Shown here piece by piece: positions 5,281-19,202 of a stretch of DNA of 25,573 bases (positions within the stretch are counted from its first letter, which is position 1; the number at the start of each line of letters is the position of its first letter). The stretch comes from an uncultured Methanosarcinales archaeon (GTDB taxonomy: Archaea; Halobacteriota; Methanosarcinia; Methanosarcinales; Methanosarcinaceae). The notes under the pieces are model-generated. The model searched no databases and was not told the origin of the DNA. It saw only the letters and a program-made list of their open reading frames with translations. Made by a program: the position numbers and the translations under genes. The stretch is from assembly GCA_964423715.1 (NCBI GenBank), contig CAYRGB010000002.1, forward strand, positions 1 through 25,573. The letters run 5' to 3'.

Positions 5281-5541
5281 GATTCTAGCCTCCACTTATA
5301 ATATCCAATGATTATAGAATTTCCTTACATAAGTAATACACTATTGGCCCTGTGGATGGGATGATGTAGGTATTCATGATCACGCTTCTGGAGCGCGTAA
5401 CGAGGTATCTTCCTCCGGTCGGTGTTCCTTCGAGAAAATACCTCATATCCTTCCCTTATGACATATGCGCCCATATAGATGAACGTAGTGTATGGTCACG
5501 ATTGGGTTTTCCGTTACTGTATGAGTTTAGTTGACAATGCC

Positions 5542-5557
5542 AAAAAGTGTTATATAG
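5542..5557 (+). promoter_or_regulatory. Putative BRE/TATA promoter of the cas operon
   Basis: aaaaagtg-ttatatag, about 30 nt upstream of the cas6 ATG at 5584. Confidence 0.55.
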
Positions 5558-5583
5558 TATCGAATTTTTATATTGTTACTGAA

Positions 5584-6372
5584 ATGATATCTACGGTTGT
5601 AAAGATCGAGATCTCTACGCAGGGGATGCTTGGAGATCGATTTATAGGAGGTATTTTTCGTGGCTGGTTGGGCTACGTGTTGAAATGCGATAGGAAACGT
5701 TCGTGTGCTGCATGTGATGAGAGTTCTAACTGTCCTTATTTTATGGTATTTAAAGAAAAGACCGGTGTACGCCCATATTCTACGTTGGCCTTTGTAGATA
5801 GGGACAGAGTATCTGGTTTCATACGTCTGTATGGGGATAAGAGGAGATTTGCACCGAAGATCCTGTCTGCTATAAAGATGAAGGAGAAAAAGACCCATTT
5901 TGGAGGTCTCAGATATACGATCGATTCCATCGAAGCGAAGAACCAGGATATTAAAACCGTTGAACTGGGCAGCAAGTTGAAAATTGTAACAACATCGCTG
6001 ATGCATCTCACGCGCAACAAGATATTTGAGGTTATTCCCACGTTCAATACGATATTGCGTTCATCCGTCCGGTCGTATAACAGGATCGCTAAGTATCATG
6101 ATGAGAAGAACTATCCATATCATGTGGACAATGAGATCATGAATGTCGATGCGGAGATTTTGGATTTTGACGTACATACAATTGACCATGTACACACAAC
6201 CATGAATCATAAAAGACTGATCCTTTCCGGCATTGACGGTTGGATCACATATGATACCAGTGATATGCCTGAAGAGGTCGGTAAGATCCTGGGAATGGGA
6301 GAGGCATTACAGATAGGTAAGCATACCGCCTATGGGTTTGGTGGATTTATTGCATTAAGTCAGGAGGAGTAA
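5584..6372 (+). CDS. cas6: CRISPR pre-crRNA processing endoribonuclease Cas6
   Basis: C-terminal G-rich loop GEALQIGKHTAYGFG; N-terminal Cys cluster CDRKRSCAACDESSNC. Start placed at ATG 5584 because the ORF-track extension runs through the promoter. Confidence 0.92.
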   Translation: MISTVVKIEISTQGMLGDRFIGGIFRGWLGYVLKCDRKRSCAACDESSNCPYFMVFKEKTGVRPYSTLAFVDRDRVSGFIRLYGDKRRFAPKILSAIKMKEKKTHFGGLRYTIDSIEAKNQDIKTVELGSKLKIVTTSLMHLTRNKIFEVIPTFNTILRSSVRSYNRIAKYHDEKNYPYHVDNEIMNVDAEILDFDVHTIDHVHTTMNHKRLILSGIDGWITYDTSDMPEEVGKILGMGEALQIGKHTAYGFGGFIALSQEE

Positions 6373-6374
6373 GA

Positions 6375-8636
6375 TTGAGTGGAAATATAGGGGTGGTAGA
6401 TTGGTTTACGAAGAGTATCAGGGATGAAGTCATATATCCTGACCAGAGTGATCGTCAGCTCAAAGTGCTTATAGAGGATATAATTCGTGTTTTTGACAGT
6501 TCATCAACGAGATTGAGCAAGATCGCCAACGAGTTATATGACACACTGGAGCATAACGAGTTGCTGAACAGTATTGCTTCAGATTCAAGGTTTCCCATTT
6601 GTTCCCTTTTCCATCATCTGAAGAATACATCCGGAATAGCGGTATGCCTGCTGATCCAGAAAATTGATATTGATCCGGGATATGGTAGTAAAAACCTGGG
6701 AAAGTATGGGATATCCTTAAAATATGAGGAAAAGGATCTGGTATCGTTGATCAGGATCGCTGCCTTATTGCATGATATCGGGAAACCCCGTTCATTTACC
6801 CAGACTAAGAAATACCAACCATATCACTATCATACAACACAGAGCAGGGAGATAATTGAGCATATATTGTCCAACACAACGTCTCCTCTCGTGGAAAAGT
6901 TTGAACTGGATAAGATATTGCCACTCCTTGCATCCAGGCATCACTCACGAGATGCGACCACACCCCTTGAAAACCTGTTGAGTCAGGCAGATACGGTGGC
7001 ATCTGCTGCAGATAGGGTGAACGAGATCAACAGTTTTCTGGATAACAATACACTCACCGTCAAGTGCAATGACCGAATATTCCCTCATGAGATCAACTTT
7101 GATGCCGGGGACATGAAATGCCAGGAAACACCACATACTGTGATACTCGGAAATGGAATTACAGAGATCAGGAATGTGGTACCGAAGGATGCCAATGCAA
7201 AATATGCTAGATTGTTCATTGACCATACATCACACGGAGGTCCTGTACATTATCTCGGAAACCCTGGGAAACTTCCCGGTAGTATCGGTATTCTGTCCAT
7301 GGACATGATGGGCATACAGGGATTCATTGGTGAAGCCGACAAACTTAAGATGCTGCGTGGTGGCAGTGCTATTGTGGATGATGCATTAAAATGTGCAAAG
7401 GACATCATATCCAGAGAGGTTTGCAGTGAAGCTGTCCTGTTCTGTGGAGGTGGAAATCTCCTTTCATTCATACCGAACACGGATCATTACAGATCAATAA
7501 TGAAAGAAATGATCAAGAAGAAGGTCCGCGAAGTGTCCAAGAACGGATTGCATGGAGCAGTTATAACATTCGAAGAAATGCTATCCGATGTCGCAGGTAA
7601 ATTCGATAGAACACTGGAACATTCTCAGGATAAACTTGATATTGAGAAGAACATTACTCGAGAGCGGCCAACGATACCGAATACAAAGGATGTGTGTGGG
7701 TATTGTTTCAAGAGACCGAAACCGTACAGCTCTGATATGTGTTCTGCATGTAAAGTAAAAAATGATCGGGGAGAACGTGGTAAGTCCAATATATTTATCC
7801 AAGATACTCATGGTGCCCAGCGGCCGAGTGAACTGGCACATCTGGGTGATTCCATTGCTGCTCTGGTCATTGATGGAAATATGATGGGAAGGATGTTCCA
7901 GCAGACAACTACCCCTGCTGAGTATACCTACAAAAGCCAGATATTTGAATCAAGGTTCAATGGCATTCTCAAAAGAACGATCGATGATTTCTGTAATGAA
8001 CCATCTAGCTTAGATCTGATACTACATCATCACAATGGTCAGGAATTCCTTGGGATCGATGTCCTCTATTCCGGTGGTGATGATGTCCTGATACTGATGA
8101 ATGCCAAAGGGGCGCTCCAGTTCACAGAGCAATTGGTGAACAATGTCGCAGAGGAATTTACCTTTAAGAGTAAGTTCCATGATGGTACAGTGTTTAAGAA
8201 CCCCGTCATCACAATCTCTGCAGGTATCGCAATTGCAAATAACAGGTTCCCTATATATTTCCTGCTCAATGCAGCACGTGAGATGGAATCAGATGCTAAG
8301 AAAGCCTTCAGGAATGATACAAAAACTGATGATTTTGATTTTATTAAATTACCAGAAGGAGCGATGTCGGTAACTGCTATAAGTTCTGCAATGCCGGGAA
8401 AGGACCATGTATCCTTTGTGATCAAACGTGATGCAGAGAGTAAACACGATCTCAAACAACTTAAGAAAATGATCAGCATTGCACTGGACAAAGAGAAGTC
8501 ACGTGCGCTGGTGTCCGATCTGATCACCTGTCCACCATCCGAACGTGAACGACTGGATCTCATAAAATATATGTATTCATCAATACAGCGCAAGAGCAGC
8601 GATATCGGTCTTGATGAATGTGAATGGATGGCATAA
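6375..8636 (+). CDS. cas10: Type III large subunit Cas10 (HD nuclease + Zn finger + Palm cyclase); probably shortened by 28 codons by a premature TAA (full length 6375..8720)
   Basis: SLFHH, LLHDIGK, RHH, ADTVAS HD motifs; Palm1 GGGN; CGYC..CSAC; DGNMMG; intact GGDD (8073-8084). The frame stays open after TAA 8634-8636 to TGA 8718-8720, which overlaps the next ATG. Confidence 0.93.
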   Translation: MSGNIGVVDWFTKSIRDEVIYPDQSDRQLKVLIEDIIRVFDSSSTRLSKIANELYDTLEHNELLNSIASDSRFPICSLFHHLKNTSGIAVCLLIQKIDIDPGYGSKNLGKYGISLKYEEKDLVSLIRIAALLHDIGKPRSFTQTKKYQPYHYHTTQSREIIEHILSNTTSPLVEKFELDKILPLLASRHHSRDATTPLENLLSQADTVASAADRVNEINSFLDNNTLTVKCNDRIFPHEINFDAGDMKCQETPHTVILGNGITEIRNVVPKDANAKYARLFIDHTSHGGPVHYLGNPGKLPGSIGILSMDMMGIQGFIGEADKLKMLRGGSAIVDDALKCAKDIISREVCSEAVLFCGGGNLLSFIPNTDHYRSIMKEMIKKKVREVSKNGLHGAVITFEEMLSDVAGKFDRTLEHSQDKLDIEKNITRERPTIPNTKDVCGYCFKRPKPYSSDMCSACKVKNDRGERGKSNIFIQDTHGAQRPSELAHLGDSIAALVIDGNMMGRMFQQTTTPAEYTYKSQIFESRFNGILKRTIDDFCNEPSSLDLILHHHNGQEFLGIDVLYSGGDDVLILMNAKGALQFTEQLVNNVAEEFTFKSKFHDGTVFKNPVITISAGIAIANNRFPIYFLLNAAREMESDAKKAFRNDTKTDDFDFIKLPEGAMSVTAISSAMPGKDHVSFVIKRDAESKHDLKQLKKMISIALDKEKSRALVSDLITCPPSERERLDLIKYMYSSIQRKSSDIGLDECEWMA

Positions 8637-8716
8637 GTCCTGCTGAATAAGAAACTGCTGACCGCATCTCGCATGATCATACCGCACCTATGGCATAATA
8701 GTGAGGAGGGGATGGT

Positions 8717-9370
8717 ATGAACATCTGGAGAATTACCCTTGTAGCAACCAGCGATTTCCACACGGCAGGTGACTCAAAGGGTTCGACTGTGGACTATCTG
8801 AGGGATGCCGGTGATGTACCGTATATTCCAGGAACCCATGTTAAGGGTGTGATGCGCAGTGAAGCGGAACGTATCCTGCGCAGTGTGGAGGATGTTAAAT
8901 GCTGGGTTACGGGTGATCCTGATCAGGAGAATGTGTCTGAAACGAACAAACGGAAGATCCTGACCTGTGAACAGATATCAGGTACCCGATGTGATGTATA
9001 CAGTATATTTGGGTCCATCAATGACGGGGATGGATATATCGAGGGCAAGATCCGGGTGACCGATTTTAATGCAGTCAGAAAAGTAGTATCTGCGTCCAGG
9101 ATGCACGTATCCATTGACAGGGATTACATGTCGAACAGGAGTGGAGGATTGTATCGTACACGAGTTGTGCCCCGTAACACCAGTTTCATGGGACATATTA
9201 TCACACGTGATCTGACAGAGAATGAAGAAAAACTGCTATGGGCCAGTCTTCATTCGATGTGCCACTATGGACTCGGTGGAGAGAGATCACGTGGTCTTGG
9301 AAGTTTTGATATTGGATCAATGGAACGGATTGATCATGGTGAGTTCCTGCAAGGAGGTATAGGACAATGA
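8717..9370 (+). CDS. csm3: Cas7-group RAMP (Csm3-like)
   Basis: PYIPGTHVKG, IFGS, SIDR, GLGGERSRGLG; Asp retained at the predicted catalytic position (STVDY). Confidence 0.85.
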   Translation: MNIWRITLVATSDFHTAGDSKGSTVDYLRDAGDVPYIPGTHVKGVMRSEAERILRSVEDVKCWVTGDPDQENVSETNKRKILTCEQISGTRCDVYSIFGSINDGDGYIEGKIRVTDFNAVRKVVSASRMHVSIDRDYMSNRSGGLYRTRVVPRNTSFMGHIITRDLTENEEKLLWASLHSMCHYGLGGERSRGLGSFDIGSMERIDHGEFLQGGIGQ

Positions 9371-10464
9371 TCGAACTTACAGGCACACTCACAGCGGTGT
9401 CTCCCCTGCATATTGGTATGGGTAAAAAGAGCGGAACGTTTGTAAAGACCCTTGAGCACATACCTGGCAGAACGATACGTGGAATGGTCGGGTATTACCT
9501 GTACACGAACAAGCGCGAACTGTTTGATAAACTCAGGATCAATGAAGATATGGATATGAGTGATACTGGGGTATACTTCAAAGATGCTCTTCCAAGGTTT
9601 GATGACCATAATACGATTGCGTCTCCCATATCATTGAGATGGTGTAAGAAATGCGAGTATCTGATGGAATATAATGCAAAAGAATGTCATAATATGACTG
9701 ATGGCAAAAAATGCTTGCATGAAGGAAAGAAGGTCACAGGTTTCATTACATTAAAATCAGTAAGTTCAGGCAAACTTGAAAAGGCGCGGGTAAATATGCA
9801 GATATCCACAAAATGCCCGATAACACGTGATGGTCATACGAGTCCGGGTTTAGATTATGAGAGTTCTCCCTATCATATAGAGGGTATCGTTCCAGGTACA
9901 AAATTCGGATTCAAATGCCTGGTTGAGGATGAATATGTGGATGATCTTAAAGAAGCACTGACCGAGGCAGGTGTGTTTGCGGGCCTTGGCGGTTATCGAT
10001 CACGCGGATATGGTACTGTGGCATTTACGGATATGACGGAAACACCCGTGGACGATGTGATCCAGAAGAGAAGCAGTGAGATATCTGATATCCGGAATGT
10101 GATGATGGTCGCGAATTCTCCCATGATACTCAAGAATGATACCCTATCGGTCATTGGATTTGGGGATCGGTTCGAGGAATATGCAGCAAAGGTATCTACA
10201 TCAGGAAACTTGAGTGTAACCTGCATAATTGAACAGGGGGAGAAGGAGGATCAGGTGAAACAGCGGCTTACAGAAGGAATTGCAAGAGGGTGGTCCATAA
10301 AGGACAGGAATAAAGTGTCTGAGATCATTCCATGTATTGGTCATGGGAGTTGTGTGATGATCAAGGGCGATCCAGAGGTCCTTGCAACCCTTGAGATGTA
10401 CGGTGTCGGGGAGATGACCAACAGTGGATATGGTGATGTGTATTTCATGGAGGGTCAAATATGA
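9367..10464 (+). CDS. csx10: Cas5-group double RAMP, Csx10-like
   Basis: SPLHIG, TLEHIPGRTIRG, two G-loops (GLGGYRSRGYG, GVGEMTNSGYG), CKKC Zn motif; position after cas10-cas7 as in III-D. Confidence 0.75.
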   Translation: MIELTGTLTAVSPLHIGMGKKSGTFVKTLEHIPGRTIRGMVGYYLYTNKRELFDKLRINEDMDMSDTGVYFKDALPRFDDHNTIASPISLRWCKKCEYLMEYNAKECHNMTDGKKCLHEGKKVTGFITLKSVSSGKLEKARVNMQISTKCPITRDGHTSPGLDYESSPYHIEGIVPGTKFGFKCLVEDEYVDDLKEALTEAGVFAGLGGYRSRGYGTVAFTDMTETPVDDVIQKRSSEISDIRNVMMVANSPMILKNDTLSVIGFGDRFEEYAAKVSTSGNLSVTCIIEQGEKEDQVKQRLTEGIARGWSIKDRNKVSEIIPCIGHGSCVMIKGDPEVLATLEMYGVGEMTNSGYGDVYFMEGQI

Positions 10465-10943
10465 ATGATCTGATGCGAATGAATCAGTATTCATGGGAAT
10501 TGGCAACCCTTGCAATATTGAAAAAAGGTAGGGATGTAGAGGCATATTCTACAGATCAGATCAGGAGGGTCATGTCAGCTGGGTCCTCTGATGATCTGAC
10601 AGATATCCGCAAGATCATTAATAACTATTCGCCCGCATCACCACAGGGTAAAAAGAAATGGCAGGCACAGAAAGAGATCGGTGCTAAACACGAGGCGAAC
10701 AAGGCATTTGGTGACAGATTACTTGAGATCATAGCAGGGTCTGATGTTGTGGATGTAAGTCGGTTTCTCCAATATACGTTATGGAATATTAAGATCATTG
10801 AAAAAAACAATGTTGATGTATTGTCACGAGAGCTTGACTGTGAAGGTGTAACTGATAAAGAAGTTCTGAATCAGCTAAAGCAGATATTGGAAGCTGACAA
10901 GGGTCCAAGGAAAAATTATGAAAGGGATAACAGGAGGAAATGA
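10461..10943 (+). CDS. Helical CRISPR-associated protein, probable small subunit (Cas11/Csm2-like)
   Basis: 160 aa, charged and helical-looking, DQIRRV resembles the Csm2/Cmr5 SQLR motif; ATGA-coupled within the effector operon. Confidence 0.55.
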   Translation: MNDLMRMNQYSWELATLAILKKGRDVEAYSTDQIRRVMSAGSSDDLTDIRKIINNYSPASPQGKKKWQAQKEIGAKHEANKAFGDRLLEIIAGSDVVDVSRFLQYTLWNIKIIEKNNVDVLSRELDCEGVTDKEVLNQLKQILEADKGPRKNYERDNRRK

Positions 10944-11464
10944 TTATGGCTGTTGAGTTTGATAAAGACGAGTTGGGTAAGATCGTATTGGATTCCTATG
11001 ATCTGATGTTGAGTATACCCTATCCAAATAAAAAAGGCGATAAGTATGAGATCCAGTCCAGAAGCAAGTTGAAGAACCTGCCTGAAGCATTGCGCGAATT
11101 TGAGGATCCTCGATCAGCAGTAGTACATTTCGTGAAGAGTGCCTCCTATTTCCTACCGCGTTCGGGCAATGATCTGAATGATTTTCTAAGTATGCTACTC
11201 ACAAAAGTCCGGAAGATACAGGACGAAGAATCAGATCTGGAGAAGGTACGAGAAAAAATACGGTACCTTATTGGATACAGTAACTGGGGTATGGATGCGG
11301 TTTGCAATATCTTCAGTAAGGCTGGCAGAGATGATAAGATACGTGATAGATTACAGAACATGGTACGTGCAGAACTTCTGATCGTTGGTGAAGATGGGTC
11401 TGTCGATAGGATCGTCAGTGATATTATGCACTGGAAAGCAAAGGCTGACAGCAGGAGGTATTGA
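10940..11464 (+). CDS. Second helical CRISPR-associated protein, possible additional Cas11-like subunit
   Basis: 174 aa, amphipathic helical pattern, no RAMP or Csx19-like signature that I can see; ATGA-coupled. Confidence 0.45.
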   Translation: MIMAVEFDKDELGKIVLDSYDLMLSIPYPNKKGDKYEIQSRSKLKNLPEALREFEDPRSAVVHFVKSASYFLPRSGNDLNDFLSMLLTKVRKIQDEESDLEKVREKIRYLIGYSNWGMDAVCNIFSKAGRDDKIRDRLQNMVRAELLIVGEDGSVDRIVSDIMHWKAKADSRRY

Positions 11465-12198
11465 ACATGTTCAGGGAACTTGAAAACCGGGCAATACTAC
11501 ATTACAGGATCGTTACTCGGTCAGACCTGCATATCGGTGGGCATACTACGATCGAACCTGCTGAGGTGGACAATTCGGTCATAAAGGATACAGACGGTTA
11601 TCCCATCATTCCGGGAAGCAGCCTGAAAGGCGTGCTCAGGATCGAAATGGAGCGACTCCTCAGGAGCTTGGGTCTGAAGATATGTGATGTTAATGCAGGT
11701 GCATGCAATGAATGTGCGGTCTGCTATCTGTTTGGTGGAAAGGACCTTGCATCCTCCATACGTATCAGGGATGCAGTTGCTAATCACAAACGTACACTGA
11801 TCAGGGATGGCGTGGCCATCGATCGTAAGGCTCGAAAAGCGCGAGACGGTGGAAAATATGACACAGAGGTTGTGCCAAAGGGTACGGAATTCACGGGTGT
11901 TGCGACGATAGAGAACACCACACTAAAAGAGGTATATGAGCAGGCTAAACTTGGCGGTCTCCTGAGTTTGATAGATTTCTTCAATGCCTGTTGTGGAACC
12001 ATAGGCCACGCTTCTTCCCGTGGATTTGGAGAGGTTGACATTGAGATCGAGCGTATCCAGTTGATCACGGCACAGGATTATCTGGATGGCAGGTACGAGG
12101 GAGAGGAGTATCTGAAAGGTGGGGATGAGTATGACGAACTGAAAAGCAATGCTATTGCAGATTGGTCAGGGTTCATAAAGAGTGATGGACATGCTTGA
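11461..12198 (+). CDS. csm3: Cas7-group RAMP (Csm3/Csx7-like backbone RNase)
   Basis: LHIGG, EVDN (catalytic Asp position), PIIPGSSLKG, C-x-x-C Zn site, LFGG, RDGVAIDR, GHASSRGFG. Confidence 0.88.
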   Translation: MNMFRELENRAILHYRIVTRSDLHIGGHTTIEPAEVDNSVIKDTDGYPIIPGSSLKGVLRIEMERLLRSLGLKICDVNAGACNECAVCYLFGGKDLASSIRIRDAVANHKRTLIRDGVAIDRKARKARDGGKYDTEVVPKGTEFTGVATIENTTLKEVYEQAKLGGLLSLIDFFNACCGTIGHASSRGFGEVDIEIERIQLITAQDYLDGRYEGEEYLKGGDEYDELKSNAIADWSGFIKSDGHA

Positions 12199-13543
12199 TT
12201 TTGATACTTTTGAGAATCGATGGGAGATCACGGCAAAGCTGACAATGGTCACTCCCCTTCGTATTGGGGGCGGGCAGAATGCAGGTGCTTATTCCATGTC
12301 ACAGAGTCCGGTGCTACTGTCTTACGATGCCCAGACACAGACCGCTGAACCGTATATTCCCGGCAGCAGCCTTAAAGGTGTGTTGCGAAGTACGGTGGAG
12401 CGTATCGTGAGAACGATCGACGAGAATGAGTCATGTATTGCTGTGGGGAAGCGTGACAAGGTGCTATGTGGAGATTGTGTGTCCTGTTCCATCTTTGGTT
12501 CACAGAAAAAGGGTGCCAGTATCAGGGTTCAGGATGCTCATCTATCAACAGAGATAGGGTCCGGAGGAGTATTGGATGAACGGCCACATTGTGCAACGAT
12601 CTATGACAAGAAGGGAGATGAATATGTCATGCGGATGCGAACACAGGGTAGGGGTGGCAGATCGTTTGAGGTTCCTAAGACTATCCTGCGTATGGAAGAG
12701 GTCGTGGCTGCCAATACATCATTTGATCTTAACATTAATCTCGACAATGCGGATGAACATGAAGTAGGACTTGTGTTACTTGCCCTGAACGAGTTCAATC
12801 ATAAACGTTCCTGTCTGGGAGGCGGTACTTCCCGCGGGAATGGATTTGCGGATATGAACCATGTTCGAGTAACCAGAAAAAGGGTTGTTCCGGATGAAGA
12901 TAGGTTGTTCAAAGTGGAATCGGAACAGATGGATCCTTATATGTTCTGTGATTCGGCGAGAGATTATCTAAGGGATATGGACAATGGACAGGATGTTACC
13001 CGGCGGGATTTCGATGTATATTACCGGGCATATTCATCAGAGCGTCAGGAAGGTCATCTTGTGATACAGTATGAGGTCGAGACCCTTAATGATTTCCAGA
13101 TGCCCGGGGCGGATGGGGCTACTGTCACCAATTATGGTGTGCCAGTGATCCCTGGATCTACGATCAAGGGATTTCTGCGCCATAGCCTGATCGAGGCTGG
13201 CAGGGAAGCGAAGTTCATCGATGAAATGTTCGGATCGGTGAACGGTCAGGCTCAACACCGATCCCGCCTGCTGATATCAGATGCTTTTTCTGATACGGGA
13301 TTTTCAGGGCATGACATGATCCCGGCGGGCACGATATTGACTATGTGGGCGGTGTTTGACAATGTTGATAAGGATGAGCTGGGAGCGATCAATGAGATAC
13401 TGAAAAAACCATCCTGCAGGATTACGGGGAAGAAAACCGCAAATACGGACAAGAGAGGTCAGTCCTCCCGCAACACGGTTAGTTTCCGGGCGAAAGATCT
13501 GAGCAAGTTCGAAGTGTCCAAATACCTCAATGACCAAATATGA
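12191..13543 (+). CDS. Cas7-Cas7 fusion RAMP (Csm5-like distal subunit)
   Basis: Two RAMP starts: PLRIGG..PYIPGSSLKG..IFGS..LGGGTSRGNG, then PVIPGSTIKG..MFGS..RLLISDA. First domain lacks the catalytic Asp and second lacks a G-loop. Start could be 12182, 12185 or 12191. Confidence 0.75.
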   Translation: MLDFDTFENRWEITAKLTMVTPLRIGGGQNAGAYSMSQSPVLLSYDAQTQTAEPYIPGSSLKGVLRSTVERIVRTIDENESCIAVGKRDKVLCGDCVSCSIFGSQKKGASIRVQDAHLSTEIGSGGVLDERPHCATIYDKKGDEYVMRMRTQGRGGRSFEVPKTILRMEEVVAANTSFDLNINLDNADEHEVGLVLLALNEFNHKRSCLGGGTSRGNGFADMNHVRVTRKRVVPDEDRLFKVESEQMDPYMFCDSARDYLRDMDNGQDVTRRDFDVYYRAYSSERQEGHLVIQYEVETLNDFQMPGADGATVTNYGVPVIPGSTIKGFLRHSLIEAGREAKFIDEMFGSVNGQAQHRSRLLISDAFSDTGFSGHDMIPAGTILTMWAVFDNVDKDELGAINEILKKPSCRITGKKTANTDKRGQSSRNTVSFRAKDLSKFEVSKYLNDQI

Positions 13544-14046
13544 GGTATTGGATAGCATTTATTGGATCAAGTCCATTTGCAGTGATCAATACTATTTGGG
13601 CAGCGTGCAGGGAAGCTGGGTATGTTCCTGACCACGCTGTGTTCATGATCAATAGGGAACTTAACGAAGAATGGATAGATATTGTAAGACATTGGGTTCC
13701 CCGGATACTCGAAGAGTATGGGGTCGAAGATCCATTACTCTCAACACATATGGTCGAGGAAACCGGATTCCAGATGATCTGTGAGGAGTATCGGGCACAT
13801 TTGTTTGATCTTAAGGCGAATGATGAAGTTGCAGTGGACATCACACCCGGTAGAAAGTATATGTCTGCTATTGCTATGGAAATGGGATTGTCCATGAATG
13901 CGGATCACGTGTATTACCTACATCTGACGGATAATCGATACCATAATATTCCATATCCTATTGTCCCATTGCATCGACACGAATTGATCGATATGAAGAA
14001 GGAGTTCTGTAAAGTAGGAACGAATAGGGCGGTGCTGGATGAATGA
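13540..14046 (+). CDS. Stand-alone CARF-domain protein (cOA sensor or ring nuclease)
   Basis: 168 aa; N-terminal strand-GSS (IAFIGSSPFAVINT) and VDITPGRK CARF motif II; no fused effector domain. Confidence 0.75.
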   Translation: MRYWIAFIGSSPFAVINTIWAACREAGYVPDHAVFMINRELNEEWIDIVRHWVPRILEEYGVEDPLLSTHMVEETGFQMICEEYRAHLFDLKANDEVAVDITPGRKYMSAIAMEMGLSMNADHVYYLHLTDNRYHNIPYPIVPLHRHELIDMKKEFCKVGTNRAVLDE

Positions 14047-15083
14047 TCGTACCAAAGGACTATTTTGTGGCGTTGCTCAATGAACTGTCCCGGAATTCGG
14101 ATCAGGTTGTTGTGAAGTATCCTCCAATAGGCACGATCTTTACCATTAAGATGGATGAAACGTGTGCCTTGTATCCTATGCCAAAAGAGGAGTTCAAGCA
14201 CCTGAGAAAGAACCTGCTTGATCCTTGGCATAATGATAAGTTCATTTCAGATGAGATCCCTACGGATATGGATCTGGTGACCTGTCTTTATGCATCTTCG
14301 ATACTGCGGTCTGAAGAAGAATCATCTCTTAAGGATAAGTTGCAGGAAGGATGCCAGCGTAATTTGTTGAAAGGGGACAAGCCACTTTTCGTTGGTTATG
14401 ATACCAATTCTCTACGGCATAGAAGTAATCGTGTAGTTGCGAACATTCTGTCAGAACTACCACGGGATTCTGCAGCGAACATGGGATTTTGCCTGAACGA
14501 GAGCGTTAAGACTGAATTGAGGTACAGGTGGAATCATAAATATAAAATGCCGGATGTAAACACACTCGGCAAGGTTCACCGGCAAGCCCGTACATTTTTA
14601 AATCAGCATCCGAAGGATGCACGTATGGCTCGTCTGGGTGCTGTGGAGTATAAGCATATCATGACACAACCAAATTGTGTGGAGATCAACGGCAGGGGAT
14701 ATGGTGATAACAAGATCGTCCGATCATTTGAGTCATTTCGGGATAAACGCAATGTGGACATCCTTTTGATCAGTGGGGACAATGATTTTACTGCAATGGC
14801 CCATGAGGAGAAAATGAATGCGTTGTATATGAAGCAGCCAACAAATTATAGTACGGAACTTGAGGCTTCATGGGAGCAGGTCGTTGAGTTGCTTTATTGT
14901 GTTGCAGTGGTTTTTGGTCATGTGTTTATTAATGACATCGATGTGTTTGGGATATGGACCGGCAAAGTGGAAGATGACTGGGATGGATACAGGGTATCCA
15001 TTGATCCTTCTAACAGGGATCTGAAAGGAGATATGTTCAGGGATATCAGGATACTTGAGAAGGGTGTACATGATACGGTGTGA
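14043..15083 (+). CDS. PIN-domain nuclease with N- and C-terminal extra regions
   Basis: 346 aa; PIN acidic tetrad pattern VGYDTNSL, NESVKTEL, GDNKIV, LISGDNDF; ATGA overlap with the CARF gene. Confidence 0.72.
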   Translation: MIVPKDYFVALLNELSRNSDQVVVKYPPIGTIFTIKMDETCALYPMPKEEFKHLRKNLLDPWHNDKFISDEIPTDMDLVTCLYASSILRSEEESSLKDKLQEGCQRNLLKGDKPLFVGYDTNSLRHRSNRVVANILSELPRDSAANMGFCLNESVKTELRYRWNHKYKMPDVNTLGKVHRQARTFLNQHPKDARMARLGAVEYKHIMTQPNCVEINGRGYGDNKIVRSFESFRDKRNVDILLISGDNDFTAMAHEEKMNALYMKQPTNYSTELEASWEQVVELLYCVAVVFGHVFINDIDVFGIWTGKVEDDWDGYRVSIDPSNRDLKGDMFRDIRILEKGVHDTV

Positions 15084-15140: not shown

Positions 15141-16610
15141 ATGGTAAATGTTCTAAAAGAGATCAAAACGAGAGTGGATGCATCGGATCGTCAGTTCGTA
15201 CTGGAGGCAGTGGAGCGGTTCGAAAAAACATCTGACAGGGATGAACTTCTAACTATATCCTCAGAGATGTTCTCCTATGAAAAAAAATATGTTTCTACTT
15301 ATCAGGGTAATTGTGATGTTCTGATCAGTACGGTAGGGATGCGTGAAGCTCCGATCATCCTATCTCATCTTGCGATCAGGCCCAAAAGGAGTATATTGTT
15401 GCATACGGTTGGTTCAGAGGGTATTGCTGAGAAGGTCATGGAGGATTCGGATATAAAGGATATTGGGATCGAGTTCACGCCGGTGCAGATCGATGAAGTG
15501 GATGCTGCTTACAATTATAACTGACTTAAGGAAGAGGTGCTGCCAAGAATCGGTAATCGCCAGAATGTACGGACGGATCCGACGGGGGGCAGGAAGATCA
15601 TGGGTACAGCTGTGGGTTCCTTTGCATTCCTTTTCAGGATACCAATGGTCTATCTGCATGCAGAGGAGAAAATGGGGATCAGCGTTCCATTTAGCGGGAA
15701 GATCAGAGATATTGAAAATCCATATGAGTATTATGGCGATATGGATATGCAGATATTGAAGAAGAACTTTGACAGTGGATTTTTCGATCCTGCACATGAC
15801 GTCTGTGAACAATTGCAGAAGAATGTCAGGGATCTTGCACTGGGCAAGAAACTAGATATGCTTCAGGACCTGATAAAGATATATTGTGATTGGGATGGCT
15901 TTTTGCATAGCAGTTTTGCTCAGAATGCAAAGGGACGAAAAGAGGAGTCATATCTCGCACAGAGGCTTGAGGCGGTATATGAAGAATGTACCAGATATGG
16001 TATTATTCTTGTAAAGGAAGAAGAACTAAAACAGAATATTGAGTTCCTTAAAGAAATTGATAAGCACTGGAAATCGGGCTCCAATATTGTGGACCGATTT
16101 CGTCTAGTGGACCTTTTCCTAAACGCAGAACGTCGGGCAATCCAGGGTAAATATGATGATGCAACTGCTCGGTTATATCGTTGTATTGAGATGTGTGCTG
16201 TTCTTTTGATGGAAAAGGAAGGTATTTTCGATATTAAAAATCCTGATTATGAAGATTTTGCAGCAAAGCATAATATGGATAAAGATGACTTGTTTTCCAA
16301 GTTCAAAGATCTGTCTACTTTTGACAGTCCGAGAACTCCACCAGGTTTGAATGATATAATGTTAATGCTGCAGGTTGTTAATATTCCAGCTGCACATATG
16401 TATGCTCGAATGAACAGGACAGATGAGGAGGAGGAAAGTCTGCGGGATAAAAGGAATCGTTCCCTGCTTGCTCATGGTACAAGTCCGATTACAGCAGATG
16501 ATTACAAAGTTCTTCTTTCAGGGACGAAGAAAATTATTGGTAGTACTCTGGGTAAAAAAGAATTCAAACAGCTTGCCAATCAGGCCAGTTTCCCCACTTT
16601 AATGATCTGA
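15141..16610 (+). pseudogene. CARF-HEPN cOA-activated RNase (TIGR02710/Csm6-Csx1-like), 489 codons, broken by in-frame TGA at codon 128 (15522-15524)
   Basis: ORFs 15141..15524 and 15537..16610 share one frame: ...STVGMREAP...DAAYNYN*LKEEVLPRIGNRQNVRTDPTGGRKIM...RNRSLLAHG (HEPN R..H). Confidence 0.85.
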
Positions 16611-16611
16611 T

Positions 16612-17622
16612 ATGAGGTCTGCAACCCCGCAAACTCTCCATATCAGTGGTTATGGAAAGAAATTGAAAAAACGCAATAATCTACTGGTTGTGGAGTGGAA
16701 TGTTGATGGTGAGAAGAAGTCGTTATCCTTCACACCGTCCACTCTTGAGCATGTGATCATTTCGGGCGAGCATTCGGTCAGTACCGGTGCTATGAGGCTT
16801 TTTTTCGAGGAAAACGTAAGTTTTTCATGTCTGGATAAGTCTGGTTATCCATTAGGTTTTCTTTTTCCCCACCGCAGATGCATGCATGTGGATGTGTGGG
16901 AAAAACAGCTTATGATGAATGAAGTGGATGCTCTGCGTATTGCAAAGACGATATGTATAGCTGCTGCAAAGAACAAGATGTCGTTGTTGAGGTCGCTGCA
17001 AAGGAGTAGGGATATCGATCTTGAAGTATTTATCAAGAATGTGAACGATGTAATAAAAAACATGCATGATGCTGATGATACATCCAGTTTAATGGGCTAT
17101 GAAGGTAATTCGTCAAGGATATATTTCGATGCTTATCGGAAAATGATACCTGCGGAGTTTGGTTTCGAAAATCGGGTCAGACATCCTTCTCCAGACCCTG
17201 TGAACGTGATGCTCAACTATGGTTATGGTATCCTGTATTCAAAGGTCCGTATGGGTCTAATACAGGTGAATCTGAACCCCTATCGTGGAGTTCTGCATGC
17301 ATCATACAGGGATCAGGAAGCTCTCGTCTATGATCTCATCGAGGAGTTCAGGCAGCCAGTTGTGGACAAGACCGTCCTGACGTTGATCGGCAGGAAACAG
17401 GTTTCTCCAGGATCATTTTCAATTGAAGGTGAGATGTGTATGATGGATGATCATTTTAAGAAGGAATTTGCAGATCATATACTCACACGTCTGGAGAGCA
17501 AGACGAAATATGATGATAGCACTGAATCGTTTCAGGTTATCATTGATCTTCAGGCAAGAAGACTCAGGGATGCTATCATGAATTGTGAGGATTATGCACC
17601 TTTTGTCTATAGAGGACGGTGA
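16612..17622 (+). CDS. cas1: CRISPR integrase Cas1
   Basis: GYEGNSSRIYF, DPVNVMLNYGYGILY, GVLH, LVYDLIEEFR; no RT or Cas4 fusion. Confidence 0.96.
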   Translation: MRSATPQTLHISGYGKKLKKRNNLLVVEWNVDGEKKSLSFTPSTLEHVIISGEHSVSTGAMRLFFEENVSFSCLDKSGYPLGFLFPHRRCMHVDVWEKQLMMNEVDALRIAKTICIAAAKNKMSLLRSLQRSRDIDLEVFIKNVNDVIKNMHDADDTSSLMGYEGNSSRIYFDAYRKMIPAEFGFENRVRHPSPDPVNVMLNYGYGILYSKVRMGLIQVNLNPYRGVLHASYRDQEALVYDLIEEFRQPVVDKTVLTLIGRKQVSPGSFSIEGEMCMMDDHFKKEFADHILTRLESKTKYDDSTESFQVIIDLQARRLRDAIMNCEDYAPFVYRGR

Positions 17623-17909
17623 GCATTACCACATCGAAATACCTGATAGTTGCTTATGATATAGAGAAGAACCGAACAAGAACAAAGATCTCAGAACTTC
17701 TCCTGTATTATGGCCTGATACGAATACAATATAGTGTATTTGCCGGTGAGGTACAATCATCCAAGATGGACAAACTCTCATCTGCCTTATTTAGTATCTC
17801 AATTGCCGATGACGACAAAATAATCATGTTCCCAATCTGTGAGAACTGCCGTAACAATATCAATACGACAGATGAGTTACCCAAAAAGCTAAAGCACCTA
17901 TCCATATAA
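17619..17909 (+). CDS. cas2: CRISPR-associated Cas2
   Basis: IVAYDI, RIQYSVFAG, ICENC; GTGA overlap with cas1. Confidence 0.95.
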   Translation: MSITTSKYLIVAYDIEKNRTRTKISELLLYYGLIRIQYSVFAGEVQSSKMDKLSSALFSISIADDDKIIMFPICENCRNNINTTDELPKKLKHLSI

Positions 17910-18229: not shown

Positions 18230-18629
18230 GTTGAATGTAGAACCCGCGAAAATAGGGTATGGTAACAGTTTTGTTCTGGCTTCCTCCACAAATCCAGATT
18301 CGTTGAATGTAGAACCCGCGAAAATAGGGTATGGTAACTGTGTGTTTTCACGCGATCCAGTAACCCATCTGGCAGTTGAATGTAGAACCCGCGAAAATAG
18401 GGTATGGTAACAGCTTGAATAAATATAAACCATAGAAAAACATTAGTTGAATGTAGAACCCGCGAAAATAGGGTATGGTAACGCTCCTGCGAACACCTGA
18501 GACGCATGGGGGGTTAGTTGAATGTAGAACCCGCGAAAATAGGGTATGGTAACCCATTATTCCACCCGCCTGAATTTGTCGCCAATTTTTGTTGAATGTA
18601 GAACCCGCGAAAATAGGGTATGGTAACCT

Positions 18630-18761
18630 GAGTTCCACGCAAAAGTAGATGCAGGAAAAATGTCAGCAAACTATGCTACATTGAACGATCATCATGAGGC
18701 ATGGAGTCGGGTCGTAAAGGATATACCATATCTGCGATATATTAGAACTGAGGTGAAGTGA
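18630..18761 (+). pseudogene. 3' fragment (43 codons) of a foreign gene cut off at repeat 6
   Basis: EFHAKVDAGKMSANYATLNDHHEAWSRVVKDIPYLRYIRTEVK*. The frame is closed upstream by TAA inside the repeat, and its end carries the GAGGTGA RBS of the next gene. Confidence 0.55.
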
Positions 18762-18762
18762 T

Positions 18763-19020
18763 ATGGGTGCAATCGCCAAAAAATTAACCGGTGATGAAAA
18801 GGAATATGTGCTTGATGGGGAAGAATGGCTCCGTTCAACGATGTATAACCTTACGTGTATGAGATGCAAGCATTATCATCCATATACGGATCCTGAAACC
18901 GTCAATACCTGCAACGCATACCCAGACGGGATACCCCTCGAAATTTTAGAAGATAAAGTGGATCACCACAAACCATACAAAGGAGATCACGGCATCCAGT
19001 TCGAACCTCGCGATGTTTGA
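18763..19020 (+). CDS. 85-aa Cys/His protein of probable viral origin embedded in the CRISPR array
   Basis: ATG with GAGGTGA RBS (18750-18756); CMRCKH...CNAYPDGIPLEI...DHHKPYKGDHGIQFEP. From memory this resembles small prophage proteins next to head-morphogenesis (MuF) genes; unverified. Confidence 0.8.
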   Translation: MGAIAKKLTGDEKEYVLDGEEWLRSTMYNLTCMRCKHYHPYTDPETVNTCNAYPDGIPLEILEDKVDHHKPYKGDHGIQFEPRDV

Positions 19021-19061
19021 ACCTAAGGACGAGTGATTTCTTTTCTTATTATATTGTGGCT

Positions 19062-19113
19062 TTGTGTATTAAGTATGACTTGTGTAAAAAGTCGTAATTT
19101 TGTGTAGAAAGTC
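19062..19113 (+). repeat. Three imperfect 14-bp direct repeats, consensus TTGTGTANNAAGTM
   Basis: TTGTGTATTAAGTA (19062), TTGTGTAAAAAGTC (19080), TTGTGTAGAAAGTC (19100). Confidence 0.6.
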
Positions 19114-19202
19114 AAAGCAAAAAAACCAATACGTTGAATGTAGAACCCGCGAAAATAGGGTATGGCAACTTTGAAAAAGAGATTAAAGATCTCTAAAAGT
19201 CC

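What the first reader, a model, noticed from the sequence alone, without database searches (positions are those of the whole stretch)
13540..15083. Translationally coupled stand-alone CARF + PIN nuclease: candidate two-component cOA effector
Seen: an effector-less CARF protein overlaps (ATGA) a 346-aa PIN protein with an intact-looking acidic tetrad and two unexplained flanking regions, inside an operon whose Cas10 has GGDD. Established: CARF domains bind or degrade cOA, and PIN domains are VapC-like RNases. Inference: a split sensor/toxin pair in which cOA binding releases or activates PIN. I know of no characterised split CARF/PIN effector, but cannot exclude one. It is the only intact ancillary module in the locus.
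Basis: partly seen in the sequence, partly recalled or inferred. Interest (0 to 1): 0.72.

Follow-up and report, generated by a model that had tools for sequence, protein, structure and literature searches.

The report
Split CARF sensor plus PIN RNase
Two overlapping genes inside an archaeal type III CRISPR operon encode a small signal-sensing protein (CARF) and a separate PIN-type RNA-cutting enzyme that together are a two-piece version of an already catalogued, one-piece CRISPR helper protein; it is a real and probably working module, but of a known kind.

Summary
Genes 13540-14046 (168 aa) and 14043-15083 (346 aa) overlap by ATGA. The first folds as a CARF domain. The second is a PIN domain whose four acidic residues are invariant in 55 relatives.

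Both halves tile onto one solved fused protein, SiRe_0806 of Sulfolobus islandicus (PDB 9jxw, and 9jxx with cA4):
- CARF model on chain residues 1-138, Z 16.1.
- PIN protein on chain residues 155-418, Z 17.6.

They also tile onto one PADLOC profile, CARF_m1--CARF_PIN. That family is named Crf6 in the 2025 CRISPR classification.

- **Linkage:** the CARF gene lies directly upstream of the PIN gene in about 50 archaeal loci.
- **Fusions:** natural fusions of the same two modules exist.
- **Binding:** a complex prediction passed, ipSAE 0.77 against a best control of 0.00.

The window's clade is always embedded in a type III operon. Most other carriers lack Cas10.

Most likely this is a two-subunit, cA4-sensing PIN RNase, possibly self-limiting through Crn1-type ring-nuclease motifs. 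No biochemistry exists for the pair.

It is a new member of a catalogued kind, not a new kind. This scan had already found the same split pair on other DNA at least eight times.

In this genome, Cas10 and the Csm6-like gene each carry one nonsense codon.

The parts
13540..14046 (+). Stand-alone CARF protein (168 aa), CARF_m1/Crf6 type. Motif I is G9-S10-S11. Motif II is D100-I-T-P-G104-R105-K106. The conserved loop P138-Y-P-I-V-P143 is predicted to contact the PIN protein.
   Evidence: Searches give the ORF and the ATGA overlaps. One search gives the AF2 model (pLDDT 92). Z 16.1 to SiRe_0806 residues 1-138. PADLOC CARF_m1--CARF, E 4e-45; motif II is kept in 53 of 53 relatives.
14043..15083 (+). 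PIN nuclease subunit (346 aa). It has an N-terminal alpha/beta region (1-110), a PIN core (about 111-272) with D120/E158/D222/D246, and a C-terminal region (273-346).
   Evidence: One search gives the ORF. One search gives the AF2 model (pLDDT 89). Z 17.6 to SiRe_0806 residues 155-418, with PIN domains at Z 8-11.5; the acidic tetrad, R194 and K308 are invariant in 55 of 55 relatives; matches positions 221-455 of 465 of CARF_m1--CARF_PIN, E 1e-33.
14043..14046 (+). ATGA overlap: the start codon of the PIN gene overlaps the stop codon of the CARF gene. This suggests translational coupling.
   Evidence: sequence read directly. Relatives have a 1-nt overlap, direct abutment or gaps of 1-14 nt.
6375..8636 (+). 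cas10 (HD plus GGDD palm), the presumed maker of the cyclic oligoadenylate signal. A single TAA at 8634-8636 ends it 28 codons early. The homologous reading frame continues in-frame to about 8719.
   Evidence: Pfam HD and Cas10 palm2; 60% identity to the 786-aa Cas10 of L003 up to the stop; the sequence after the stop still aligns.
8717..13543 (+). Type III effector-complex genes (four RAMP genes and two small-subunit-like genes). The last one overlaps the CARF gene start by ATGA.
15141..16610 (+). Csm6-like CARF-HEPN gene (TIGR02710 / CARF1 type), interrupted by one in-frame TGA at 15522-15524. Relatives have it intact at 488-500 aa.
   Evidence: Intact versions are seen.
16612..17909 (+). 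cas1 and cas2.
18230..19169 (+). CRISPR array: seven 37-nt repeats.

Best explanation
The two genes encode the two subunits of a split member of the CARF_m1 (Crf6) 'CARF+PIN' family. In this Methanosarcinales clade the pair is built into a type III CRISPR-Cas operon.

Proposed mechanism:
1. Cas10 of the same operon makes cyclic oligoadenylate, most likely cA4, when the complex meets target RNA.
2. A CARF dimer binds the signal through the G-S-S and D-I-T-P-G-R-K motifs.
3. The CARF is permanently docked on the N- and C-terminal helices of the PIN protein. This reproduces the domain arrangement of fused relatives such as SiRe_0806.
4. Ligand binding is passed on to switch on the four-acidic-residue PIN active site.
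5. The PIN then degrades RNA and slows the infected cell.
6. The CARF carries the same motif I and motif II as the Crn1 ring nuclease, so it may also slowly cleave cA4 and reset the switch.

Shown here: the folds, the homology, the split/fused relation, the gene linkage and a passed binding prediction.

Inferred: the ligand, the activation, the RNA substrate and the ring-nuclease activity.
For: **Tiling onto one fused protein and one fused profile**
- The CARF model (residues 1-156) aligns to SiRe_0806 residues 1-138: Z 16.1, rmsd 2.2, 25% identity.
- The PIN-protein model (residues 1-344) aligns to SiRe_0806 residues 155-418: Z 17.6, rmsd 3.0, 245 residues aligned. This stands far above plain PIN domains, Z 11.5 or less.
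- PDB 9jxx is that protein with cA4 bound.
- The motif DITPGRKYM is identical in SiRe_0806.
- In the PADLOC CARF_m1--CARF_PIN profile, P0001 covers positions 1-152 and P0002 covers 221-455 of 465.

**Natural fusions**
- At least 11 of the top 150 family representatives are natural fusions of the same CARF and PIN modules. One example is P0155 (517 aa), with CARF at 4-156 and PIN at 175-513.

**Gene linkage**
- The CARF lies upstream on the same strand in 28 of 30 genome loci: directly adjacent in 25, about 700 bp away in 3. One of the other two is cut by a contig end right at the PIN start; the other has only about 540 bp of upstream sequence.
- The pair is also present in Thermoplasmata, Asgard and other archaea at only 24-25% PIN identity.
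- Eight close relatives all have the order cas6-cas10-RAMPs-CARF-PIN. Seven then continue into the Csm6-like gene; L060 has an extra 406-aa gene first. cas1-cas2 follow wherever the contig extends that far.
- The type III-embedded sequences form one clade, support 100/98.

**Predicted binding**
- Complex prediction: ipSAE 0.77, against a best of 3 controls of 0.00.
- In the tool's calibration this mark was reached by 58 of 80 solved complexes and 2 of 110 mismatched pairs.
- The three runs share at least 91% of contacts, and partner pLDDT is at least 83.
- The contacts use PIN-protein residues 6-17 and 333-344 and the CARF loop 138-146.

**Catalytic and sensing residues**
- Catalytic residues are invariant.
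- CARF motif II is invariant.
- Motifs I and II equal those of Crn1/Sso2081 (G9-T10-S11 and G104-R105-K106; PMC10018336).
Against: - No experiment exists for this pair.
- I found no paper describing what SiRe_0806 does.
- An older test of a fused CARF-PIN (ST0035) saw only weak cA4 crosslinking and no induced RNase (PMC6546367).
- The complex pass may partly reflect the model's memory of the fused structure (caveat).
- Predicted interface residues are no more conserved than the rest of the proteins.
- 45 of 61 genomes with the pair have no Cas10 hit. The family therefore does not depend on type III CRISPR as a rule.
- In this window Cas10 lacks its last 28 residues. Signalling may be impaired here.
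Confidence: 0.62

Rival explanations
1. Toxin-antitoxin-like release model, the first reader's 'releases' option. The CARF holds the PIN inactive as an antitoxin would, and cOA binding makes the CARF let go, freeing an active PIN toxin.
For: - The layout is two small overlapping genes with the PIN second, as in VapBC operons.
- Binding is predicted.
- The split form is the majority in the family: 109 of the top 150 representatives are 320-400 aa.
Against: - Fused relatives, which cannot dissociate, exist within the same family and in the solved SiRe_0806.
- The predicted contact is with the N- and C-terminal helices of the PIN protein. None of the listed contact residues is at or next to the four acidic active-site residues.
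- The upstream protein has no DNA-binding or active-site-plugging tail of the VapB kind.
Confidence: 0.15
2. The CARF is mainly a stand-alone ring nuclease of the Crn1 kind. It switches off cA4 signalling for the neighbouring Csm6-like RNase, and the PIN protein works independently of it.
For: - Motif I (G-S-S) and motif II (G-R-K) are the same as in Crn1/Sso2081 and at the same residue numbers.
- Solved ring nucleases Sis0811, Sis0455 and Sso2081 are among the best structural matches, Z 14-15.5.
- The 2025 classification marks Crf6 as sensor, effector and ring nuclease.
Against: - The NCBIfam Crn1 equivalog scores 13.6 bits against a cut-off of 125.
- The CARF is tied to the PIN gene, not to Csm6 or Cas10. 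The pair persists in 45 genomes without a Cas10 hit.
- It is fused to PIN in several lineages.
- Binding to the PIN protein is predicted with clean controls.

Ring-nuclease activity and PIN control are not mutually exclusive.
Confidence: 0.1
3. The pair answers to a signal other than the Cas10 product, or has an RNA-housekeeping or stress role. Its place in the type III operon would then be secondary.
For: - Most carriers lack Cas10: only 16 of 61 have a hit.
- Every sampled genome of two families carries the pair (f5 14 of 14, f26 6 of 6), while only one genome in each of those families has a Cas10 hit.
- A distant clade has a fixed CARF-PIN-HAD hydrolase trio, sometimes beside a beta-CASP RNase gene.
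Against: - For the window's own clade the pair is always inside the type III operon, between the last RAMP gene and csm6. That clade is monophyletic.
- The cA4-contacting motif II is invariant.
- The solved fused relative binds cA4 (PDB 9jxx title).
Confidence: 0.1

Closest known systems
CARF_m1 family (renamed Crf6) 'CARF+PIN' of the CARF superfamily census (Makarova et al. 2020; renamed in Makarova et al. 2025, PMC12669027 Supplementary Table 2; profiles distributed in PADLOC-DB as PDLC01971-01973)
   Same: Both window proteins match the family profiles strongly and without overlap: the CARF at E 4e-45, the PIN part at E 1e-33. The census already holds stand-alone 'CARF_m1--CARF' profiles. 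The functions predicted for the family are sensor, effector and ring nuclease.
   Different: - The window has the two-gene form, not the fused form.
[quoted passage not shown]
SiRe_0806 of Sulfolobus islandicus (PDB 9jxw apo, 9jxx with cA4; deposited as 'PIN domain-containing protein', released 2025)
   Same: It is the best structural match of both halves. CARF aligns to residues 1-138 (Z 16.1) and the whole PIN protein, including both flanking regions, aligns to residues 155-418 (Z 17.6). It shares the DITPGRKYM motif.
   Different: - It is one polypeptide of about 420 aa, against two proteins of 168 and 346 aa here.
- Identity is only 16-25%.
- I found no paper on its activity.
Crn1 ring nucleases (Sso2081, Sis0455, Sis0811; CARF7/Crf7)
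   Same: They are stand-alone CARF proteins of similar size. Motif I (G-T/S-S) and motif II (G-R-K) fall at the same positions. Structural Z is 14-15.5.
   Different: - The window CARF fails the NCBIfam Crn1 model, 13.6 bits against a cut-off of 125.
- Its best profile is CARF_m1, not CARF7 (E 4e-45 against 3e-4).
- It is always paired with a PIN gene.
Csm6/Csx1 CARF-HEPN and Cami1 CARF-RelE effectors
   Same: They follow the same logic: a CARF dimer senses cA4 or cA6 and switches on an attached RNase.
   Different: The RNase is of a different fold (PIN), and sensor and RNase are separate polypeptides here.
VapBC toxin-antitoxin modules
   Same: Both are two-gene operons with overlapping genes and a PIN nuclease second.
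   Different: - The first gene is a CARF-fold sensor, not a DNA-binding antitoxin.
- The PIN protein is 346 aa with two extra regions, against about 130 aa for VapC.

Membership tests
CARF_m1 / Crf6 (CARF+PIN) | CARF domain that matches the CARF_m1 profiles | tested here: met
   P0001 matches PDLC01972 CARF_m1--CARF at E 4e-45 (positions 2-144 of 145) and PDLC01973 at E 3e-36 (positions 1-152 of 465).
CARF_m1 / Crf6 (CARF+PIN) | PIN module that matches the C-terminal part of the fused family profile | tested here: met
   P0002 matches PDLC01973 CARF_m1--CARF_PIN at E 1e-33, positions 221-455 of 465. The next best is CARF_PIN PDLC01068 at E 7e-24. CARF_m3 reaches only E 1e-6.
CARF_m1 / Crf6 (CARF+PIN) | Sensor and effector on one polypeptide (the fused architecture named in the classification) | tested here: not met
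   There are two ORFs with an ATGA overlap. The split form is the majority among relatives, and the census has stand-alone CARF_m1 profiles. Fusion is therefore not a strict requirement of the family.
CARF_m1 / Crf6 (CARF+PIN) | Binds a cyclic oligoadenylate and regulates the PIN RNase | not testable with these tools
   Only indirect evidence exists: motif II is invariant and the solved fused relative was crystallised with cA4.
PIN-domain nucleases | PIN fold with four conserved acidic residues | tested here: met
   Z 8-11.5 to solved PIN domains over residues 100-274. D120, E158, D222 and D246 are invariant in 55 of 55 relatives. Pfam PIN models do not reach their threshold for P0002.
Crn1 ring nuclease (CARF7 / Crf7) | Matches the curated Crn1 equivalog model | tested here: not met
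   NF040581 cas_Crn1 scores 13.6 bits against a cut-off of 125. PADLOC CARF7--CARF reaches only E 3e-4.
Crn1 ring nuclease (CARF7 / Crf7) | Motif I G-[TS]-S and motif II G-R-K | tested here: met
   P0001 has G9-S10-S11 and G104-R105-K106. Sso2081 has G9-T10-S11 and G104-R105-K106 (PMC10018336).
Crn1 ring nuclease (CARF7 / Crf7) | Cleaves cA4 | not testable with these tools
   This needs an enzyme assay.
VapBC type II toxin-antitoxin | Upstream antitoxin with a DNA-binding domain and a tail that blocks the PIN site | tested here: not met
   The upstream protein is a complete CARF fold with no DNA-binding domain. None of the predicted contact residues is at or next to the four acidic active-site residues.
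Type III CRISPR-Cas ancillary (cOA pathway) gene | Encoded within a type III locus whose Cas10 has a cyclase GGDD motif | tested here: met
   The window operon runs cas6-cas10(GGDD)-RAMPs-CARF-PIN-csm6-like-cas1-cas2. Eight relatives have the same layout. Across the wider family this does not hold: only 16 of 61 genomes have Cas10.

The most novel reading that the evidence does not exclude
The CARF-PIN pair may be at root an archaeal RNA-decay switch that answers to a nucleotide signal made without Cas10. Supporting signs are that the pair is universal in some families that lack type III systems, and that one clade has it fixed next to a HAD hydrolase and sometimes a beta-CASP RNase. The Methanosarcinales type III operon would then have captured an existing two-subunit switch. 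If so, the split form would allow the sensor and the nuclease to be dosed or exchanged separately. The cA4-binding, Crn1-like CARF would act as a timer for the RNase.
Probability: 0.15. Interest if true: 0.65.

Novelty: new member of a known kind. Interest (0 to 1): 0.36.

Why it matters
CARF+PIN effectors are catalogued as Crf6, Crf10 and Crf11, but the classification still lists the PIN only as a predicted RNase. I found no published activity for any of them.

Most Crf6 genes lie away from CRISPR loci, so the source of their signal is unknown. The clade found here is the useful exception. The pair is hard-wired into a type III operon with a GGDD Cas10 and a Csm6-like partner, which points to a cA4-type messenger made by that Cas10.

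This makes it a good starting point for the first biochemical test of the family. It would also test how a sensor on a separate polypeptide controls a nuclease.

The result would not change the general picture of cOA signalling.

Tried and rejected
- **Pfam and NCBIfam on the PIN protein:** no usable hit.
- **Sequence profile of the PIN family against PDB sequences:** nothing significant. The link to SiRe_0806 came from structure only.
- **TAL-effector hits:** the CARF profile and the single sequence gave top 'hits' to TAL effector repeats. No single stretch passes; these are summed weak repeat matches and were rejected as artefact.
- **Literature on SiRe_0806:** several searches found no paper on it or on any characterised CARF-PIN activity. 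One search was swamped by HIV 'CRF' papers.
- **Makarova 2020 CARF census:** the paper is not held.
- **The search for related loci with the broad PIN alignment:** I therefore have no organism names for the G genomes.
- **Bacterial promoter/terminator scan:** found no more than shuffles did, and it is not suited to archaea.
- **Interface conservation:** predicted contact residues are not more conserved than other residues, 2.25 against 2.23 bits for the CARF and 2.06 against 1.97 bits for the PIN protein.
- **Sequencing runs:** no RNA holder is listed. Two marine metagenome runs hold only short, low-depth contig pieces, and neither covers the two nonsense codons.
Full report
**1. The observation**

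- The + strand carries a 168-aa ORF (13540-14046) and a 346-aa ORF (14043-15083). They share ATGA at 14043-14046.
- The 168-aa ORF in turn overlaps the end of the preceding RAMP gene by ATGA at 13540-13543.
- The operon reads cas6 (5479-6372), cas10 with HD and GGDD (6375-8636), four RAMP genes and two small genes (8717-13543), the pair, a Csm6-like CARF-HEPN gene (15141-16610), cas1 and cas2 (16612-17909). A seven-repeat CRISPR array follows at 18230-19169.
- An AglB gene, and relatives named as Methanohalophilus, Methanolobus and Methanomethylovorans, place the window in Methanosarcinales.
- The genome is a 1.41-Mb, 78%-complete assembly with one copy of the pair.

**2. What the two proteins are**

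*The 168-aa protein (P0001)*
- Pfam gives only sub-threshold CARF hits.
- Its AF2 model (pLDDT 92) is a full CARF domain. It scores Z 12-16 to many solved CARF domains.

*The 346-aa protein (P0002)*
- It has no Pfam hit.
- Its AF2 model (pLDDT 89) has a PIN core, Z 8-11.5 to solved PIN domains over residues 100-274.
- D120, E158, D222 and D246, plus R194 and K308, are invariant in all 55 relatives collected.

*The decisive result: both proteins map onto one solved fused protein*
- That protein is SiRe_0806 of Sulfolobus islandicus (PDB 9jxw, and 9jxx with cA4).
- CARF residues 1-156 align to chain residues 1-138: Z 16.1, rmsd 2.2, 25% identity.
- PIN-protein residues 1-344 align to chain residues 155-418: Z 17.6, rmsd 3.0, 245 residues.
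- The two 'unexplained flanking regions' of the PIN protein are therefore shared parts of this architecture.
- By sequence, the best genuine PDB match of the CARF family profile is the same protein, E 3e-6. The motif DITPGRKYM is identical in both.

*Family assignment*
- P0001 matches PADLOC CARF_m1--CARF (E 4e-45) and positions 1-152 of CARF_m1--CARF_PIN.
- P0002 matches positions 221-455 of 465 of that same fused profile, E 1e-33.
- CARF_m1 is called Crf6 in the 2025 classification. [quoted passage not shown]

**3. Linkage and fusion**

- An exhaustive profile search found 415 clusters at 50% identity.
- Among the best 150, 109 are 320-400 aa, which is the PIN module alone. At least 11 are 517-735-aa fusions carrying the same CARF at the N-terminus. 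For example, P0155 has CARF at 4-156 and PIN at 175-513.
- In 401 genomes of the phylum, 61 have the PIN module.
- In 28 of the 30 loci fetched, the CARF gene lies upstream on the same strand: directly adjacent in 25 and about 700 bp away in 3. One of the remaining two is cut by a contig end at the PIN start; the other has only about 540 bp of upstream sequence.
- The pair also occurs in Thermoplasmata, an Asgard archaeon and another archaeal contig, at only 24-25% PIN identity.

**4. Relation to type III CRISPR**

- Six close relatives from public assemblies, plus genomes G238 and G398, all have the same order as the window up to the PIN gene. The pair sits after the last RAMP gene and before the Csm6-like gene. 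L060 has one extra 406-aa gene between the PIN and Csm6-like genes.
- In a tree, these type III-embedded sequences form one clade, support 100/98.
- Elsewhere the picture differs. Only 16 of the 61 carriers have a Cas10 hit (PF22335). Only five of them, the window included, have it within about 7 kb.
- Two families carry the pair in every sampled genome (14 of 14 and 6 of 6), yet only one genome in each has a Cas10 hit.
- A distant clade has a HAD-family hydrolase gene fixed directly downstream. It sometimes also has a beta-CASP RNase gene upstream.
- The CARF motif D-[IV]-T-x-G-R-[KR] is kept in all 53 CARFs, including those without Cas10.

**5. Do the two proteins bind?**

- A 1:1 complex prediction gave ipSAE 0.77 (runs 0.79, 0.77, 0.77), against a best of three controls of 0.00.
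- In the tool's calibration, this mark was reached by 58 of 80 solved complexes and 2 of 110 mismatched pairs.
- The runs share at least 91% of contacts, and partner pLDDT is at least 83.
- The contacts join the first helix (6-17) and last helix (333-344) of the PIN protein to CARF residues 20, 24, 51-60 and the loop 138-146.
- Two cautions apply. The solved fused relative may be in the model's memory. The contact residues are no more conserved than average.

**6. Mechanism**

- The best reading is a two-subunit, cOA-sensing PIN RNase: Cas10 signal, then CARF dimer, then docked PIN, then RNA cleavage.
- cA4 is the likely ligand. The fused relative was crystallised with cA4. The CARF has the R105/K106 pair that binds cA4 in Sso2081 (PMC10018336).
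- The same motifs, G9-S10-S11 and G104-R105-K106, are the ring-nuclease motifs of Crn1. Self-limiting cleavage of the signal is therefore plausible.
- Fused relatives argue for activation within a stable complex rather than release of a free toxin.
- None of this has been measured. An older test of a fused CARF-PIN (ST0035) saw weak cA4 crosslinking and no induced RNase (PMC6546367).

**7. State of this locus**

- Cas10 is cut short by a single TAA at 8634-8636. The following 27 in-frame codons still align to the tail of intact relatives.
- The Csm6-like gene has one TGA at 15522-15524.
- The CARF and PIN genes are intact, with all conserved residues.
- I could not check whether the nonsense codons are real or assembly errors. 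Public runs hold only low-depth fragments that miss both sites.

**8. Novelty**

- The kind is known and catalogued, and a fused relative has a solved structure.
- This scan had already reported the same split pair on other DNA at least eight times.
- What is specific here is a monophyletic clade in which the pair is a fixed part of a type III operon. That gives the family an obvious signal source and a convenient test system.

Noticed in passing
window 8634-8719: cas10 ends at a single TAA, 28 codons before the end seen in intact relatives. The in-frame sequence after the stop (VLLNKKLLTASRMIIP...) still aligns to their C-terminus. This looks like a recent nonsense change or a sequencing error.
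   Followed up: partly
window 15522-15524: The Csm6-like CARF-HEPN gene (about 489 codons) has one in-frame TGA at codon 128. Relatives have it intact at 488-500 aa.
   Followed up: partly
L040, L042, L043, L053-L057, L059 (genomes G219, G002, G088, G056, G379, G245, G065, G210, G344): In a distant clade of the family the pair is followed directly by a HAD-family hydrolase gene of about 230 aa. In four of the 20 fetched loci (three of them also carrying the HAD gene) a beta-CASP/metallo-beta-lactamase RNase gene of about 515 aa lies upstream on the same strand, directly adjacent in two and several genes away in two. Two whole families carry the pair in every sampled genome, while only one genome in each has a Cas10 hit.
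   Followed up: partly
L028, L034, L038 (also L056): In these loci about 700 bp separate the CARF and PIN genes. L056 shows a 156-aa ORF of unknown nature between them.
   Followed up: no
L060:10054-11274: One Methanolobus-like relative has an extra 406-aa gene with no Pfam hit between the PIN gene and the Csm6-like gene.
   Followed up: no
L045, L047, L048: In the branch without nearby cas genes, three loci have a UvrD-helicase/PD-(D/E)XK nuclease gene of about 1000-1200 aa within a few genes of the pair. Several loci also have IS605 TnpB genes nearby.
   Followed up: no
window 13597-13728 (P0001 residues 20-63): This stretch of the CARF (helix-strand-helix, ...CREAGYVPDHAVFMINRELNEEWIDIVRHWVPRILEEYGV) gives summed weak matches to TAL effector repeats. 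No single repeat match is significant, so I treated it as a repeat artefact.
   Followed up: partly
L009:7244-15029: In an Asgard contig the pair sits between a Csa3-like CARF-HTH gene and a helicase, a 376-aa gene and a PLD nuclease gene. Earlier notes of this scan describe the same company.
   Followed up: no
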